64,000 nucleotides of DNA from Gammaproteobacteria bacterium (GTDB taxonomy: Bacteria > Pseudomonadota > Gammaproteobacteria > Pseudomonadales > Porticoccaceae), in NCBI GenBank assembly GCA_038106145.1, contig JAYODD010000006.1:30621-94620 (forward strand). The letters are read 5' to 3'. The position numbers and the translations under genes are program-made. Shown in pieces: positions 57,234 through 62,635 of the stretch (its first letter is position 1; every line of letters starts with the position of its first letter). The notes below the pieces were generated by a model. It worked only from the letters and a program-made list of their open reading frames with translations, was not told the DNA's origin and did no database searches.

Positions 57234-57614
57234 ATGCATCCGAGCAAGGTAAAACTGAATAAACCGGACCGCAGCCTCGAGCTGACTTACCCCGACGGCG
57301 CGCATTTTGTTCTCAGCGCGGAGTTTCTGCGGGTGCATTCCCCCAGCGCCGAAGTGCAGGGGCACGGCCCGGGCCAGGAAATTCTGCAACACGGCAAAAA
57401 ACAGGTCGCTATCGACCGTCTGGAAGCGTCGGGCAACTACGCCCTGACCCTGCATTTTAGCGACGGCCACCACACCGGAATTTACAGCTGGGTCTATCTG
57501 CGCGATCTGTGCGACAACCAGGAAGCCTACTGGAACGCCTACCTGGAAAGACTCCATCGCGCCGGCGCGAGCCGCGATCCGGAGGAGCAGGTGGTGCGAT
57601 TTATCAATCCATAA
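57234..57614 (+). CDS. DUF971 domain protein (gamma-butyrobetaine hydroxylase-like N-terminal fold)
   Basis: The ATG at 57234 gives ..LELTYPDGAHFVLSAEFLRVHSPSAEV..GNYALTLHFSDGHHTGIYSWVYL... It lies downstream of hslU, as in pseudomonads. Confidence 0.75.
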   Translation: MHPSKVKLNKPDRSLELTYPDGAHFVLSAEFLRVHSPSAEVQGHGPGQEILQHGKKQVAIDRLEASGNYALTLHFSDGHHTGIYSWVYLRDLCDNQEAYWNAYLERLHRAGASRDPEEQVVRFINP

Positions 57615-57659
57615 TTGGTAGCGCCAGTCCCGGCACCGACAATTCGCCCCGCAAGCGGA

Positions 57660-59441
57660 TCATGCAATGCTCGCCCGCGCCGCCAAATTCACCCGCAACC
57701 CCAGGGGGTACATGGTGAACTCCAACCGTTCGGTAACTCCGTCCAGGGGCGCGCCGGCCGTCACCTCAAAGTGTTGCACCACCATGGTCAGCACTGCTTT
57801 CATTTCCAGCAGCGCCAAACTTCGCCCGGGACACAGGCGCGGTCCGGACCCAAACGGCATAAACGAGCGGGGATTGGCGACGCCCCGTTGCCCGTCGCCC
57901 TTCAGCCAACGCTCCGGCTTAAATAACGTTGCAGCGGGGTAATCGGCCTCGCTCATGGCCATGGCGCGGGTCAGCACCACCGCCGACTCGCCCTTACGGA
58001 AACTCAGCCCACCAATATTGAGCGCACGATTAGCTTCCAGGATATTCATCGGAGCAACCGGCTTGAGCCGCATGGTTTCGTTAATTACCGCGTCAAGGTA
58101 GGGCAACTGGCGGGTTTGTTCGAAGGTATCGAGGACCCCTGCTCCAACCACGTCTGCGATTTCCCGGCGCAGGGTATGCTGCACGTGGGGATATTTCGCC
58201 AAAAAATACATGGCCCAGGCGAGGGAATTGGCGGTGGTATCCTCCCCCGCCAGCAGCATGGTCAGCACGTTGTCCGCTACTTCCTGCTCGGAAAATCCGG
58301 ATTTGTCGTCCGCTACCGCCAGCAACAGGGATTGCAACAAATTCTGCGGATTGTCCCGGTGCGCCGGATTGGCGTCCAACTGCGCCCGTCCCTGGCGAAT
58401 AAATTCAATCACCGTCGCGTAAACAACAGCCACCGATTTCTCCACGGCCCGATCCCGCGGTAGTTTGAAATACTGCCAATAACGGATCGGCGCCAGCAAG
58501 CGTCGTTGCAGCATGGGAAAAATAGTGTCCAGATGCTGGTGCATCGTGCCCCCCTCCCGTTCCAGTGTGTTGGTGTCCTGGCCAAACGCCAACGAGGTGG
58601 TGACATCAACGGTAAAGCGCGTCAAATCGGACTGTACATCGACGCCCCCCGCGGCCATCCCAGTGGCGTGCCAACGCCGCCGTAACCGTTCGGTCACCGC
58701 AACCAGCGTGGGGAAAAACTGGCGCAGGTGACGTATATCAAGGGATTGCATAATGACCGGACGTTGACGGCGCCAACGCTCGCCCTCGGCCATAAAGATG
58801 CCCTGCGTACTCAGGGCGCCGATAAAGGCTTTTTCCAGGGATGTCGGACGCCGAAAATCGTCCGGCCGCGCCTTCAGCAGCTCATTGGCAAGGGTTACAT
58901 CGCTGACCACGGCAATCGGCCAGCCGACCAGGCGGCACTGATACAAAGGCCCATAAATATGCGCCCATGCTTCAAGGGTTTGATGAAACGCGGTGCGCTT
59001 GAGCTGCAACAGATTTCCCACCAACGGCCAGCGCCGGGGTCCAGGTAGCGAGGCAATAGTGCGTCCGACCGGCTGCCGCGCGGCGTCCCGAACGCCGTCG
59101 ACGGCCACCATCACCTGCCCCCCAACGACGCTGCTTCCTATCGCGCGCAAGCAAGTTTCCGCCTGACCCGCGTCTGGCTGCCCAACCCTCAGCCCGGACC
59201 GGCAGTCGAATTGCCACTGATGCGATCGGCAAATCAGTTTACCCTGGGAGATATGGCCTTCTGATAACAATGTTCCCTGATGGGGGCAGCGGCCCTCAAA
59301 AACCCGTATTTCCCCCTGCCAGCACAGCACCACCAGATCAACCGCACCGACCCTGGCACCCAGCACCCCGACTCTGCGCAGATGCGCTACGTCGGCGACC
59401 GCAACCAGGCGGCCAGACTCGGCGGTCCCTTCAACCCCCAT
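57660..59441 (-). CDS. fusion protein: N-terminal Rieske [2Fe-2S] domain plus cytochrome P450
   Basis: 593 aa. The Rieske ligand motifs are CPHQG..(16 residues)..CRSH at residues ~52-74. P450 hallmarks are the I-helix LLAGEDTT, ETMRL (ExxR), PERW and the heme-thiolate loop FGSGPRLCPGRSLA. There is one uninterrupted ORF, an ATG start and a GGGAG SD. Confidence 0.85.
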   Translation of the reverse strand: MGVEGTAESGRLVAVADVAHLRRVGVLGARVGAVDLVVLCWQGEIRVFEGRCPHQGTLLSEGHISQGKLICRSHQWQFDCRSGLRVGQPDAGQAETCLRAIGSSVVGGQVMVAVDGVRDAARQPVGRTIASLPGPRRWPLVGNLLQLKRTAFHQTLEAWAHIYGPLYQCRLVGWPIAVVSDVTLANELLKARPDDFRRPTSLEKAFIGALSTQGIFMAEGERWRRQRPVIMQSLDIRHLRQFFPTLVAVTERLRRRWHATGMAAGGVDVQSDLTRFTVDVTTSLAFGQDTNTLEREGGTMHQHLDTIFPMLQRRLLAPIRYWQYFKLPRDRAVEKSVAVVYATVIEFIRQGRAQLDANPAHRDNPQNLLQSLLLAVADDKSGFSEQEVADNVLTMLLAGEDTTANSLAWAMYFLAKYPHVQHTLRREIADVVGAGVLDTFEQTRQLPYLDAVINETMRLKPVAPMNILEANRALNIGGLSFRKGESAVVLTRAMAMSEADYPAATLFKPERWLKGDGQRGVANPRSFMPFGSGPRLCPGRSLALLEMKAVLTMVVQHFEVTAGAPLDGVTERLEFTMYPLGLRVNLAARASIA

Positions 59442-59541
59442 GACCTTCGCTCCCGAATGTTTACCAGCACGTTACGGGCCCATCACTGGCGGCCGTCGTA
59501 GTGGTTCGCAACCACGTGGTGCGACCCCTGGTACATTCCCG

Positions 59542-59811
59542 TCAACCGATACTAAATCCCTCGCACCCGCAATCCTCAACGGCGCGCCATGTCACCGCTG
59601 ACACCCGTGCCGAGGGCGAACCCCGAGCTACCGCTTTTTGCATCTGGTCTATAGCAGCCTGCGCCCCACATAAAAGAACTTCCACACTACCATCGGGCAA
59701 ATTACGCGCATAACCCCGTACACCAACCGTTGCGGCGATATCCTGCACGTAACGTCGAAAAAAGACGCCCTGGACTCTGCCCCGCACCACACCGGCGACA
59801 CAATGGTTCAC
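59542..59811 (-). CDS. acyP: acylphosphatase
   Basis: 89 aa. VRGRVQGVFFRRYVQDIAATVGVRGYARNLPDGSVEV. Confidence 0.9.
   Translation of the reverse strand: MNHCVAGVVRGRVQGVFFRRYVQDIAATVGVRGYARNLPDGSVEVLLCGAQAAIDQMQKAVARGSPSARVSAVTWRAVEDCGCEGFSIG

Positions 59812-61691: not shown

Positions 61692-62635
<944 letters not shown>

What the first reader, a model, noticed from the sequence alone, without database searches (positions are those of the whole stretch)
57660..59441. Natural fusion of a Rieske [2Fe-2S] domain to a cytochrome P450
**Seen in sequence:** one uninterrupted 593-aa ORF. Residues ~20-115 look like a Rieske ferredoxin (..IRVFEGRCPHQGTLLSEGHISQGKLICRSHQWQFDCRSG..), with the two ligand motifs CxH and CxxH 16 residues apart. 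Residues ~125-593 form a complete P450 with AGEDTT in the I-helix, ETMR, PERW and FGSGPRLCPGRSLA. No reductase or other ferredoxin gene is adjacent. The neighbours are a DUF971 gene and acylphosphatase.
**Established knowledge:** self-sufficient or partially fused P450s are known with CPR-like, phthalate-dioxygenase-reductase-like, flavodoxin and plant- or 3Fe-4S-type ferredoxin partners. I am not aware of a characterised P450 fused to a Rieske-type cluster.
**Inference:** the Rieske domain may be a built-in electron shuttle that accepts electrons from a generic reductase. Alternatively, it could be a second catalytic or regulatory redox centre. The substrate is unknown; the AGEDTT / PERW features resemble the fatty-acid-type (CYP4/CYP102-like) clans.
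Basis: partly seen in the sequence, partly recalled or inferred. Interest (0 to 1): 0.62.

Follow-up and report, generated by a model that had tools for sequence, protein, structure and literature searches.

The report
Natural Rieske–cytochrome P450 fusion enzyme
A marine or sediment Porticoccaceae bacterium encodes a genuine, conserved, transcribed single protein that joins a Rieske iron-sulfur electron-carrier domain to a eukaryote-like cytochrome P450, a widespread but apparently never-characterised way of wiring electrons into a P450.

Summary
Window 57660-59441 (-) is one 593-aa ORF with a Rieske [2Fe-2S] domain (Pfam E 1e-12, residues 14-92), an 18-residue linker and a complete P450 (E 4e-91).

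It is not an assembly artefact. Contigs from three independent metagenome studies span it without indels. More than 117 full-length homologues (41-87% identity) share the architecture. All four cluster ligands, the heme cysteine, the I-helix AGEDTT motif and ExxR are invariant. Both domains are under purifying selection (dN/dS 0.08-0.19). The linker is relaxed and varies in length (18 to about 90 aa).

The Rieske domain is closest to the low-potential ferredoxin T4moC. The P450 is E-class (CYP102/CYP505/CYP3/CYP97-like fold). No flavin reductase is fused or adjacent in any of about 30 contexts examined.

The best reading is a tethered Rieske ferredoxin that relays electrons from an unlinked reductase to the heme.

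The same P450 family also has many unfused members intermixed on the tree, which suggests one old fusion lost repeatedly.

One homologue is the last gene of the toblerol polyketide cluster of Methylorubrum extorquens AM1 (probably tobL). Another follows a sphingoid-type operon in Persicobacter. Both hint at aliphatic substrates.

Nine full-text searches found no paper that characterises this architecture.

The parts
57660..59441 (-). Complete Rieske-P450 fusion ORF (593 aa plus stop codon at 57660-57662)
   Evidence: ORF; both Pfam domains; independent contigs, no indels; more than 117 homologues with the same architecture
59450..59454 (-). Shine-Dalgarno-like GGGAG, 8 nt upstream of the ATG at 59441
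   Evidence: direct reading of the sequence; function inferred
59103..59408 (-). Rieske [2Fe-2S] ferredoxin-like domain (residues 12-113; all-beta in the AF2 model)
   Evidence: Pfam PF00355 E 9.7e-13; closest solved structure T4moC, E 4e-9; dN/dS 0.10-0.19 within the genus; strands E12-E113 in the model
59280..59288 (-). Cluster ligand motif 1, C52-P-H54
   Evidence: C52 and H54 invariant in 117 sequences
59220..59231 (-). Cluster ligand motif 2, C71-R-S-H74
   Evidence: C71 and H74 invariant in 117 sequences
59049..59102 (-). Inter-domain linker (residues 114-131, VDGVRDAARQPVGRTIAS)
   Evidence: Only 14% identity outside the genus; dN/dS 0.32-0.53; length 18-61 aa in A2 and about 80-90 aa of low-complexity sequence in L026 and L027
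57663..59048 (-). E-class cytochrome P450 domain (residues 132-593), starting with the Pro-rich hinge LPGPRRWPLVGN
   Evidence: Pfam PF00067 E 4e-91; PDB sequence hits CYP97A3, CYP102, CYP3A, CYP24A1 and CYP4B1; Foldseek TM(target) 0.83-0.88 to CYP505A30, CYP102A1 and CYP3A5
58233..58250 (-). I-helix oxygen-activation motif A398-G-E-D-T-T403 (acid-alcohol pair D401/T402)
   Evidence: G399, E400, D401, T402 and T403 invariant
58068..58079 (-). K-helix ExxR (E455-T-M-R458)
   Evidence: E455 invariant and R458 conserved in at least 90%
57906..57917 (-). Meander PERW (residues 509-512)
   Evidence: P509, R511 and W512 invariant
57825..57854 (-). Heme-thiolate loop F530-GSGPRL-C537-PG
   Evidence: F530, G531, G533, P534, R535, C537, P538 and G539 invariant
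59542..59811 (-). Upstream co-directional acylphosphatase gene, possibly co-transcribed (context only; no demonstrated functional link)
   Evidence: Pfam PF00708; metatranscriptome contig 59311-59646 bridges the 100-nt gap; the order yihY-tlpA-acyP-fusion is conserved in Porticoccaceae loci

Best explanation
The gene encodes a soluble, two-centre monooxygenase. An N-terminal low-potential Rieske [2Fe-2S] ferredoxin domain is tethered by a flexible linker to an E-class (eukaryote-like) cytochrome P450. Electrons are proposed to flow from NAD(P)H to a separately encoded flavoprotein reductase, then to the fused Rieske cluster, then to the heme iron. The reductase is most plausibly one of the Fer2-FNR-type reductases that normally serve Rieske ferredoxins; a GR-type ferredoxin reductase is an alternative. 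O2 is then activated through the conserved D401/T402 pair, and a hydrophobic substrate is hydroxylated or epoxidised. That substrate is probably aliphatic (lipid-, polyketide- or terpenoid-like). In the classical scheme this corresponds to a 'class V-like' system: a ferredoxin-P450 fusion that needs a separate reductase. It differs in having a Rieske-type cluster and an N-terminal position. Shown here: the architecture, its integrity, its conservation, purifying selection on both domains, transcription, and the absence of any fused or adjacent reductase. Inferred: the direction of electron flow, the identity of the reductase, and the substrate.
For: Both domains are intact and all catalytic and ligand residues are invariant across 117 homologues. 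dN/dS is 0.10-0.19 for the Rieske domain and 0.075-0.12 for the P450 domain, against 0.32-0.53 for the linker. The Rieske domain is closest to T4moC, the electron-carrier ferredoxin of toluene-4-monooxygenase (E 4e-9). It shares near-identical cluster loops with T4moC (CPHQxxLLSEG...CRxHxWxF) and lacks the extra Cys pair of high-potential bc1-type Rieske proteins. The linker is poorly conserved and ranges from 18 to about 90 residues, as expected for a tether on a mobile carrier domain. Pfam and NCBIfam find no FMN, FAD or NAD domain. No reductase is adjacent in Porticoccaceae, Ralstonia/Cupriavidus, Paraburkholderia, Methylorubrum, Persicobacter or metagenome contexts. The host genome encodes five Fer2-FNR reductases and one GR-type ferredoxin reductase elsewhere. 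Rieske and P450 pairwise distances co-vary (r 0.52; Mantel 0 of 2000 permutations), so the two domains have been inherited together. Metatranscriptome contigs lie on the ORF, including one across the domain junction. Substrate hints come from three contexts. [quoted passage not shown] One follows an alpha-oxoamine synthase and an SDR in Persicobacter. One is divergent from a fatty-acid-desaturase-family gene.
Against: There is no biochemical evidence at all: cluster incorporation, redox potentials and electron transfer are untested. Low-potential Rieske ferredoxins sit near -150 to -170 mV (established knowledge, recalled rather than measured here). That is at or slightly above typical substrate-bound P450 potentials, so the transfer may be thermodynamically marginal. 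Within the same P450 family, 108 of 147 representative clusters lack the Rieske domain and are intermixed with fused ones on the tree, so the P450 can clearly work with other partners. No sharp fused-specific residue signature was found on the P450 domain. One fused representative (P0130) has Gly in place of the third ligand. No conserved gene neighbourhood defines the substrate in the window's own lineage.
Confidence: 0.7

Rival explanations
1. The components are the same, but electron transfer runs between subunits of a homo-oligomer. The Rieske domain of one chain would reduce the heme of a neighbouring chain, as in the head-to-tail alpha3 arrangement of Rieske oxygenases or the P450 BM3 dimer.
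For: The domain order (N-terminal Rieske, C-terminal catalytic domain) mirrors Rieske oxygenase alpha subunits. After T4moC, the next-best solved relatives of the Rieske domain are oxygenase alpha subunits (Stc2 3vca, 4qup, SxtT, NdmA, KshA). The shortest linkers, 18 residues, may be too short to reach the chain's own proximal face.
Against: Oligomeric state could not be assessed with the tools on hand. Very long linkers in some members fit a freely swinging intramolecular carrier at least as well. This is a variant of the main explanation and not a different function.
Confidence: 0.2
2. The Rieske domain is not the obligatory electron donor. It would be a regulatory or redox-sensing module, an electron buffer, or a domain on its way to being lost. 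The heme would then be reduced by a separate ferredoxin or flavodoxin, as in the unfused relatives.
For: In the same P450 family, 108 of 147 representative clusters are unfused and interleaved with fused ones. The tree implies 22 state changes, at least 7 of them forced by well-supported branches. Unfused loci have no separate Rieske gene nearby. One fused representative has lost a Cys ligand.
Against: All four ligands are invariant in the 117 closer homologues. The Rieske domain has dN/dS of 0.10-0.19. The fusion is retained genus-wide (5/5, 15/15 and 2/2 genomes) and across phyla. Its similarity is to a dedicated electron carrier, T4moC.
Confidence: 0.12
3. The enzyme performs reductive or otherwise non-monooxygenase chemistry, for example N-O or C-X reduction as in the flavodoxin-fused XplA. 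The Rieske cluster would supply single electrons, and O2 would not be the co-substrate.
For: XplA is a precedent for an N-terminally fused single-electron carrier driving reductive P450 chemistry (established knowledge). In three Porticoccaceae loci a MOSC-domain gene follows the fusion; that family is linked to reduction of N-hydroxylated compounds.
Against: The acid-alcohol pair D401/T402 and the whole LLAGEDTTAN I-helix motif, typical of O2-activating P450s, are invariant. The MOSC neighbour occurs in only 3 of 20 loci. The PKS and lipid-type contexts point to oxygenation.
Confidence: 0.07
4. The fusion is an assembly, frameshift or gene-calling artefact that joins two separate genes.
For: None was found.
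Against: Three independent metagenome assemblies give the same uninterrupted frame. More than 117 homologues from NCBI, JGI, ENA and Logan share the architecture, including complete genomes of cultured Ralstonia, Paraburkholderia, Methylorubrum and Persicobacter. An RNA contig crosses the junction.
Confidence: 0.01

Closest known systems
Class V ferredoxin-P450 fusions (CYP51FX of Methylococcus capsulatus; PMC7947880)
   Same: A P450 is fused to a small iron-sulfur electron carrier, and a separate NAD(P)H reductase is still needed. This is the closest functional analogue.
   Different: In CYP51FX the ferredoxin is C-terminal and of the 3Fe-4S type, and the P450 is CYP51. Here the carrier is N-terminal and Rieske-type (2 Cys + 2 His ligands), on an unrelated E-class P450.
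XplA (class VI; flavodoxin-P450 fusion of Rhodococcus)
   Same: A one-electron carrier domain is fused N-terminally, and the reductase (XplB) is separate.
   Different: The carrier is an FMN flavodoxin, not an Fe-S cluster. XplA carries out reductive denitration. Its reductase gene is adjacent, whereas none is adjacent here.
CYP116B / P450RhF (class VII) and CYP102 / CYP505 (class VIII) self-sufficient P450s
   Same: These are natural P450-redox partner fusions. The P450 fold found here is most similar to the CYP102, CYP505 and CYP3A heme domains.
   Different: Those enzymes carry a complete reductase (FMN plus plant-type 2Fe-2S plus NAD binding, or FMN plus FAD CPR) and are self-sufficient. 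This protein has no flavin or NAD(P)H domain. Identity to CYP102 is only 22-26%.
T4moC, Rieske ferredoxin of toluene-4-monooxygenase (PDB 1vm9, 4p1c)
   Same: It is the closest solved relative of the N-terminal domain (E 4e-9), with near-identical cluster-binding loops and a low-potential type without a disulfide. The genome's own T4moC-like ferredoxin is the closest paralogue (36% identity).
   Different: T4moC is a free-standing 111-aa protein that reduces a diiron hydroxylase, not a heme. Its reductase (T4moF) is encoded in the same operon.
Rieske non-heme iron oxygenase alpha subunits
   Same: The domain order is the same: N-terminal Rieske, C-terminal catalytic oxygenase domain. The same upstream electron-supply logic is expected. 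The host genome holds about 25 such genes.
   Different: The catalytic domain here is a heme-thiolate P450. It is not the 2-His-1-carboxylate mononuclear-iron domain, and no Ring_hydroxyl_A or VanA_C domain is found.
Terminal gene of the toblerol (tob) trans-AT PKS cluster of Methylorubrum extorquens AM1 (probably tobL; Ueoka et al. 2018, not readable here)
   Same: It has the same Rieske + P450 architecture, 36% identity over the full length (E 2e-131) and intact ligands. It falls in the same P450 family in the representative search (P0167).
   Different: That gene is embedded in a polyketide cluster and co-regulated with it (PMC8969499). The window's gene sits among housekeeping genes with no biosynthetic cluster. 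At 36% identity the substrate need not be the same.

Membership tests
Cytochrome P450 superfamily (PF00067) | Heme-thiolate loop FxxGxRxCxG with the axial Cys | tested here: met
   FGSGPRLCPG at residues 530-539; C537 invariant in 117 sequences; Pfam E 4.1e-91
Cytochrome P450 superfamily (PF00067) | K-helix ExxR and meander PERW/PxRF | tested here: met
   ETMR 455-458 and PERW 509-512, conserved
Cytochrome P450 superfamily (PF00067) | I-helix (A/G)Gx(D/E)T(T/S) oxygen-activation motif | tested here: met
   AGEDTT 398-403, invariant
Cytochrome P450 superfamily (PF00067) | Heme bound, 450-nm Fe(II)-CO spectrum | not testable with these tools
   Requires purified protein
Rieske [2Fe-2S] domain (PF00355) | CxH ... 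CxxH ligand pair with about 15-17 residue spacing | tested here: met
   C52-P-H54 and C71-R-S-H74, 16 residues between H54 and C71; invariant in 117 sequences; Pfam 48 bits against a cut-off of 20
Rieske [2Fe-2S] domain (PF00355) | Assembled [2Fe-2S] cluster with g_av about 1.91 EPR signal | not testable with these tools
   Requires purified protein
Low-potential Rieske-type ferredoxins (T4moC, BphF, NDO ferredoxin, CarAc) | No disulfide-forming extra Cys next to the ligands (unlike bc1/b6f CTHLGC...CPCHGS); small soluble all-beta domain | tested here: met
   The loops read CPHQG and CRSH without a second Cys. The best PDB hits are T4moC (4e-9), NDO ferredoxin (1e-4), BphF and CarAc. The N-terminal 120 residues are all-beta in the AF2 model.
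Low-potential Rieske-type ferredoxins (T4moC, BphF, NDO ferredoxin, CarAc) | Free-standing protein of about 100-115 aa that shuttles between reductase and oxygenase | tested here: not met
   The domain is covalently fused to the oxygenase. It may work like these ferredoxins, but it is not a member in the strict sense.
Rieske non-heme iron oxygenase alpha subunit | C-terminal catalytic domain with a 2-His-1-carboxylate mononuclear iron site (PF00848 / PF19112) | tested here: not met
   No such domain in Pfam or NCBIfam scans; the C-terminal domain is a P450
Self-sufficient P450s (CYP102/CYP505 CPR fusions; CYP116B PFOR fusions) | Fused FMN/FAD/NAD(P)H-binding reductase domain | tested here: not met
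   Only the Rieske and p450 domains were detected at E up to 1. A 593-aa protein leaves no room for a reductase.
CYP102 / CYP4 / CYP97 families (P450 nomenclature rule: at least 40% identity) | At least 40% amino-acid identity to family members | tested here: not met
   20-27% identity to CYP97A3, CYP102A1, CYP505A30 and CYP4B1. The fold class is shared; family membership is not.
Class V-type 'ferredoxin-P450 fusion plus separate reductase' systems | An Fe-S carrier fused to the P450, with the reductase encoded separately | tested here: met
   Architecture. No reductase is fused or adjacent. Candidate reductases lie elsewhere in the genome. Cluster type and domain order differ from CYP51FX.
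Class V-type 'ferredoxin-P450 fusion plus separate reductase' systems | Demonstrated electron transfer from carrier domain to heme | not testable with these tools
   Requires kinetics on purified protein

The most novel reading that the evidence does not exclude
Rieske-P450 fusions would form a distinct, so far unrecognised class of P450 redox system. In it, an E-class P450 is driven by a covalently tethered low-potential Rieske ferredoxin, which plugs into the Fer2-FNR-type reductases of the Rieske-oxygenase and diiron-monooxygenase world. The fusion would be ancient (Pseudomonadota, Bacteroidota, Chloroflexota), co-inherited and repeatedly lost. Its members would include the tailoring oxygenase of the toblerol pathway, possibly the epoxidase, and a genus-wide core enzyme of several Porticoccaceae genera acting on an endogenous lipid.
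Probability: 0.5. Interest if true: 0.68.

Novelty: new variant of a known kind. Interest (0 to 1): 0.58.

Why it matters
P450-redox partner fusions are central both to understanding P450 electron supply and to building simple biocatalysts. All recognised classes use flavodoxin or FMN, CPR, PFOR, or Cys-ligated ferredoxins. A Rieske (2 His + 2 Cys) cluster feeding a heme-thiolate centre would be a new pairing. Its potential is unusually high for a P450 donor and is pH-dependent, which raises testable questions about gating of the first and second electron transfer.

The family is large. It accounts for 39 of the 147 representative clusters (50% identity) kept for the tree, out of the 150 closest, and for more than 117 clusters at 90% identity. 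It is present in cultured, genetically tractable bacteria (Methylorubrum extorquens AM1, Cupriavidus, Paraburkholderia), so it can be tested directly. The natural series of fused and unfused close relatives is also a ready-made system for studying how redox-partner dependence evolves. For the Porticoccaceae, a genus-wide, syntenic, transcribed copy points to a physiological role, probably in lipid metabolism, and not an accessory catabolic one.

Tried and rejected
1. **Conserved neighbourhood as a clue to partner or substrate.** In Porticoccaceae only the upstream yihY-tlpA-acyP side is syntenic, and the downstream side varies (hslUV/DUF971, subtilase, MOSC, DEAD helicase). Contexts in Ralstonia/Cupriavidus, Paraburkholderia and four metagenome contigs are unrelated. 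No reductase was adjacent anywhere.

2. **'The fusion exists to tap the reductases of Rieske-oxygenase-rich degraders.'** The window's genome is indeed rich, with 30 Rieske hits. Across 151 Porticoccaceae genomes, however, the link is weak: the median number of other Rieske genes is 5 against 4 (p = 0.013, not corrected for phylogeny). Oxygenase-rich genera g2, g12 and g20 lack the fusion, and carriers with only 3-5 Rieske genes keep it. I rejected this as a general explanation.

3. **Split-gene versions.** No separate Rieske gene lies within 5-10 kb of six unfused relatives.

4. **A fused-specific residue signature on the P450 proximal face.** The largest frequency differences are about 0.38, for example S541 after the Cys loop at 0.51 against 0.15. 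This is not diagnostic.

5. **Measuring the cluster-heme distance in the AF2 model.** The model is good (pLDDT 86.7, pTM 0.85), but its coordinates are not exposed. pTM alone does not prove a fixed interface.

6. **Foldseek search against the PDB.** No solved chain covers both domains (query TM at most 0.69).

7. **Literature.** Nine full-text searches found no paper on a natural Rieske-P450 fusion. The original toblerol paper (PMID 29112783) is not held, so what it says about the cluster's last gene is unknown.

8. **Earlier notes of this scan.** They held nothing on this protein.
Full report
**The observation**

Window 57660..59441 on the minus strand is a single 593-codon ORF with an ATG start. 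A GGGAG motif lies 8 nt upstream. Pfam finds a Rieske [2Fe-2S] domain at residues 14-92 (PF00355, E 9.7e-13, 48 bits against a cut-off of 20). It also finds a full-length cytochrome P450 at residues 133-561 (PF00067, E 4.1e-91), and nothing else at E up to 1. NCBIfam gives only sub-threshold similarities: to sesquiterpene P450s (CYP170A1-type, 147 bits against a cut-off of 700) and to Rieske ferredoxin subunits.

They are C52-P-H54 and C71-R-S-H74 (16 residues between H54 and C71), AGEDTT 398-403, ETMR 455-458, PERW 509-512 and FGSGPRLCPG 530-539.

The neighbours are a convergent DUF971/GBBH-like_N gene and, upstream on the same strand, acylphosphatase, a TlpA/AhpC-like thioredoxin-fold protein and a YihY/BrkB membrane protein.

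**It is not an artefact**

Contigs assembled independently in an estuary, a sediment and a marine metagenome study cover 57600-59500. They differ by 0, 15 and 21 substitutions respectively and show no insertion or deletion.

A search of 5.8 billion proteins returned full-length homologues (41-87% identity), 118 of the 120 listed carrying both Pfam domains. They include proteins from Porticoccaceae MAGs, Ralstonia pickettii DTP0602, Cupriavidus, Paraburkholderia, Anaerolineae and Chloroflexota. JGI names them 'cytochrome P450/nitrite reductase/ring-hydroxylating ferredoxin subunit'.

In an alignment of 117 of these, C52, H54, C71, H74, the heme ligand C537, G399-E-D-T-T403, E455, P509, R511 and W512 are invariant.

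Within the genus, Nei-Gojobori dN/dS is 0.10-0.19 for the Rieske domain, 0.075-0.12 for the P450 domain and 0.32-0.53 for the linker.

Metatranscriptome contigs lie on the ORF. One spans the domain junction (58835-59090). Another bridges the acylphosphatase-fusion intergenic gap (59311-59646). Together these suggest transcription in situ and possible co-transcription, with the caveat that DNA carry-over in such libraries cannot be excluded.

**Anatomy**

*The Rieske domain.* It is closest to T4moC, the Rieske ferredoxin of toluene-4-monooxygenase (E 4e-9). The cluster loops are almost identical: CPHQGTLLSEG...CRSHQWQF here against CPHQEILLSEG...CRAHLWTF in T4moC. Next come the Rieske domains of some oxygenase alpha subunits and other ferredoxins (NDO ferredoxin, BphF, CarAc). 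It lacks the extra cysteine pair of high-potential bc1-type Rieske proteins, so by sequence it is of the low-potential ferredoxin type. The closest paralogue in the genome is the T4moC-like ferredoxin of a soluble diiron monooxygenase cluster (36% identity).

*The linker.* Residues 114-131 are 14% identical outside the genus. Linker length ranges from 18 to 61 residues in the alignment and reaches about 80-90 low-complexity residues in two Porticoccaceae genera. This is the behaviour of a flexible tether.

*The P450 domain.* It begins with LPGPRRWPLVGN, the proline-rich hinge typical of eukaryote-like (E-class) P450s. In unfused relatives this motif follows a median of only nine residues. By sequence the best solved relatives are CYP97A3, CYP102/CYP505, CYP3A, CYP24A1 and CYP4B1.

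*The structural model.* An AlphaFold2 model built on the 117-sequence alignment has mean pLDDT 86.7 and pTM 0.85. Foldseek matches only its P450 part (target TM 0.83-0.88, query TM at most 0.69, 20-26% identity). No solved chain has both domains.

**Electron supply**

The protein has no flavin or NAD(P)H domain, so it is not self-sufficient. No reductase or ferredoxin gene is adjacent in the window. None is adjacent in 20 related genome loci, in Ralstonia, Cupriavidus or Paraburkholderia, in four long metagenome contigs, or in the Methylorubrum and Persicobacter plasmids.

The host genome (Porticoccaceae, 2.75 Mb, 98.9% complete) encodes three P450s. It has 30 Rieske-domain genes, about 25 of which are oxygenase alpha subunits. 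It also has five Fer2-FNR-type reductases and one glutathione-reductase-type ferredoxin reductase; the last lies next to a CYP153-like P450. Suitable reductases therefore exist in trans.

I tested whether the fusion is an adaptation of oxygenase-rich degraders. Among 151 Porticoccaceae genomes the association is weak and not general. I therefore do not claim a specific reductase.

**Distribution and evolution**

Within Porticoccaceae the fusion is present in 27 of 151 sampled genomes. It is genus-wide in three genera (5/5, 15/15 and 2/2), present in half of a fourth (5/10) and absent from 16 others. Where present it always lies downstream of yihY-tlpA-acyP. This is the pattern of a vertically inherited core gene of one clade.

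In an even sample of 400 genomes of the phylum, no other genome carried the fusion and three carried unfused relatives.

An exhaustive HMMER search with the P450 domain alone against 1.84 billion representatives returned 150 best clusters (50% identity level). Of the 147 kept for the tree, 39 carry a Rieske domain (N-terminal extension of 104-163 residues, Rieske HMM E below 1e-35). The other 108 are unfused.

On a maximum-likelihood tree of the P450 domains the two states are intermixed. The tree implies 22 changes, at least 7 of them forced by well-supported branches, against about 34 for shuffled labels. Among fused proteins, Rieske-domain and P450-domain distances co-vary (r 0.52; Mantel 0 of 2000).

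The simplest reading, which is an inference, is one old fusion inherited as a unit and lost many times. Repeated loss implies the P450 can be served by other partners. That fits a carrier role for the Rieske domain better than a catalytic one. Unfused loci have no separate Rieske gene nearby. One fused representative has Gly at the third ligand position.

**Substrate hints from cultured bacteria**

A tblastn search of PLSDB found a full-length fused homologue on the megaplasmid of Methylorubrum extorquens AM1 (36% identity, E 2e-131, both Pfam domains).

That gene is the last in a co-directional trans-AT polyketide synthase cluster. The cluster order is: SDR; a 2281-aa PKS ending in a KS; a flavin monooxygenase; a 1674-aa ACP-hydrolase-aminotransferase-FMO protein; KS; AT; ACP; acyl-AMP ligase; thioesterase; DUF3047; Rieske-P450. 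Transposases follow.

The domain inventory and the TobC (C-terminal KS) / TobE (N-terminal ACP) junction match the published description of the toblerol PKS (PMC11221535). Counting genes from TobC makes the fusion tobL. In an RNA-seq study, tobACDEFGHIJKL were up-regulated about 8.3-fold together (PMC8969499).

This assignment is by position and count. The original toblerol paper could not be read, and no accessible paper discusses this gene.

In Persicobacter sp. JZB09 (Bacteroidota), a fused homologue follows an alpha-oxoamine synthase and a short-chain dehydrogenase. That is a sphingoid- or sulfonolipid-type gene pair. In one Paraburkholderia-like contig the fusion is divergent from a fatty-acid-desaturase-family gene.

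These contexts point to aliphatic, lipid- or polyketide-like substrates. They agree loosely with the fold similarity to fatty-acid and carotenoid hydroxylases. None of them applies directly to the window's own gene, which has no biosynthetic neighbours.

**Mechanism proposed**

The proposed chain is NAD(P)H to an unlinked flavoprotein reductase, then to the tethered Rieske cluster, then to the heme. O2 is activated through D401/T402, and a hydrophobic substrate is hydroxylated or epoxidised.

The architecture, its integrity, its conservation, selection on both domains, transcription and the lack of a fused or adjacent reductase are shown. The direction of electron flow, the identity of the reductase, whether transfer is within or between subunits, and the substrate are inferred.

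The main reservation is thermodynamic. Low-potential Rieske ferredoxins, around -150 to -170 mV from established knowledge, are at the upper edge of what reduces a substrate-bound P450. E-class P450s served by [2Fe-2S] proteins do have precedents: mitochondrial CYP11 and CYP24 with adrenodoxin, and plastid CYP97 with ferredoxin.

**Comparison and novelty**

Functionally the closest known systems are the class V ferredoxin-P450 fusion CYP51FX (C-terminal 3Fe-4S ferredoxin) and the class VI flavodoxin-P450 fusion XplA (N-terminal carrier). Both need a separate reductase.

The protein is not a Rieske oxygenase, because it has no mononuclear-iron domain. It is not a self-sufficient P450, because it has no reductase domain. 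It is not a member of CYP102, CYP4 or CYP97, because identity is at most 27%.

Nine full-text searches of about 8.4 million papers and preprints found no description of a natural Rieske-P450 fusion. One 2025 review of Rieske oxygenases discusses P450 fusions only as a model for engineering. Subscription journals are largely outside that library, so prior description cannot be excluded.

I classify the finding as a new variant of a known kind, the P450-redox partner fusions. It is real, widespread, present in tractable model bacteria, and apparently uncharacterised.

Noticed in passing
G000 contig C20:1-14000 and genome-wide (outside the window): The 2.75-Mb genome carries 30 Rieske-domain genes. 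About 25 are ring-hydroxylating oxygenase alpha subunits, several of them clustered with one Fer2-FNR reductase and one 110-aa Rieske ferredoxin. That is an unusually dense aromatic-degradation repertoire for so small a genome.
   Followed up: partly
G000 contig C20:223400-232500 (outside the window): This is a soluble diiron monooxygenase cluster of the toluene/phenol-monooxygenase type. It has two large alpha-like subunits, a zinc alcohol dehydrogenase, a T4moC-like Rieske ferredoxin (229622-229975) and a T4moF-like reductase (231414-232475). Its ferredoxin is the closest paralogue of the fused Rieske domain.
   Followed up: partly
G000 contig C20:188700-191204 (outside the window): A CYP153-like P450 (signature LLIVGGNDTTRN) lies directly next to the genome's only glutathione-reductase-type ferredoxin reductase. 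This is a classical class I alkane-hydroxylase pair.
   Followed up: no
window 59311-59646 and 57470-57770: Metatranscriptome contigs bridge the acylphosphatase-fusion gap. They also cross the convergent 3' ends of the DUF971 gene and the fusion, which suggests read-through or overlapping convergent transcripts.
   Followed up: no
L034:1614-26885 (Methylorubrum extorquens AM1 megaplasmid NC_012811.1, about 7.6-32.9 kb): PLSDB holds no gene annotation for the toblerol trans-AT PKS cluster. Its last gene is a Rieske-P450 fusion, preceded by a DUF3047 protein and followed by IS transposases.
   Followed up: partly
L035:5507-9629 (Persicobacter sp. JZB09 plasmid 3): An alpha-oxoamine synthase, a short (possibly truncated) SDR and a Rieske-P450 fusion form a co-directional trio. 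This may be a sphingoid-base or sulfonolipid tailoring operon, on a plasmid region rich in transposases.
   Followed up: no
P0130 (representative protein, 601 aa, Paraburkholderia-like clade): This fused family member has Gly where the third cluster ligand (C71) should be (..ILTGRAHGW..). It could be a degenerate Rieske domain or a sequencing error.
   Followed up: no
L007:11763-12560, also L008 and L014: In three Porticoccaceae loci a MOSC-domain gene directly follows the fusion on the same strand. It is absent from the window's genus.
   Followed up: no
L026:1004-2962 and L027:725-2764: Two Porticoccaceae genera carry fusion proteins of 652 and 679 aa. Their inter-domain linkers are about 80-90 residues of D/T/S/G/N-rich low-complexity sequence. 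Extra low-complexity inserts (GVGAGAGASVGVGAG; repeated GKFS) lie inside the P450 domain before the heme loop and in the helix before the I-helix.
   Followed up: no
window 61692-62635: ArsC/Spx-family and WrbA-type flavodoxin-like quinone reductase genes lie divergently upstream of the yihY-tlpA-acyP-fusion string. The WrbA gene is present only in the window's genus among the related loci.
   Followed up: no
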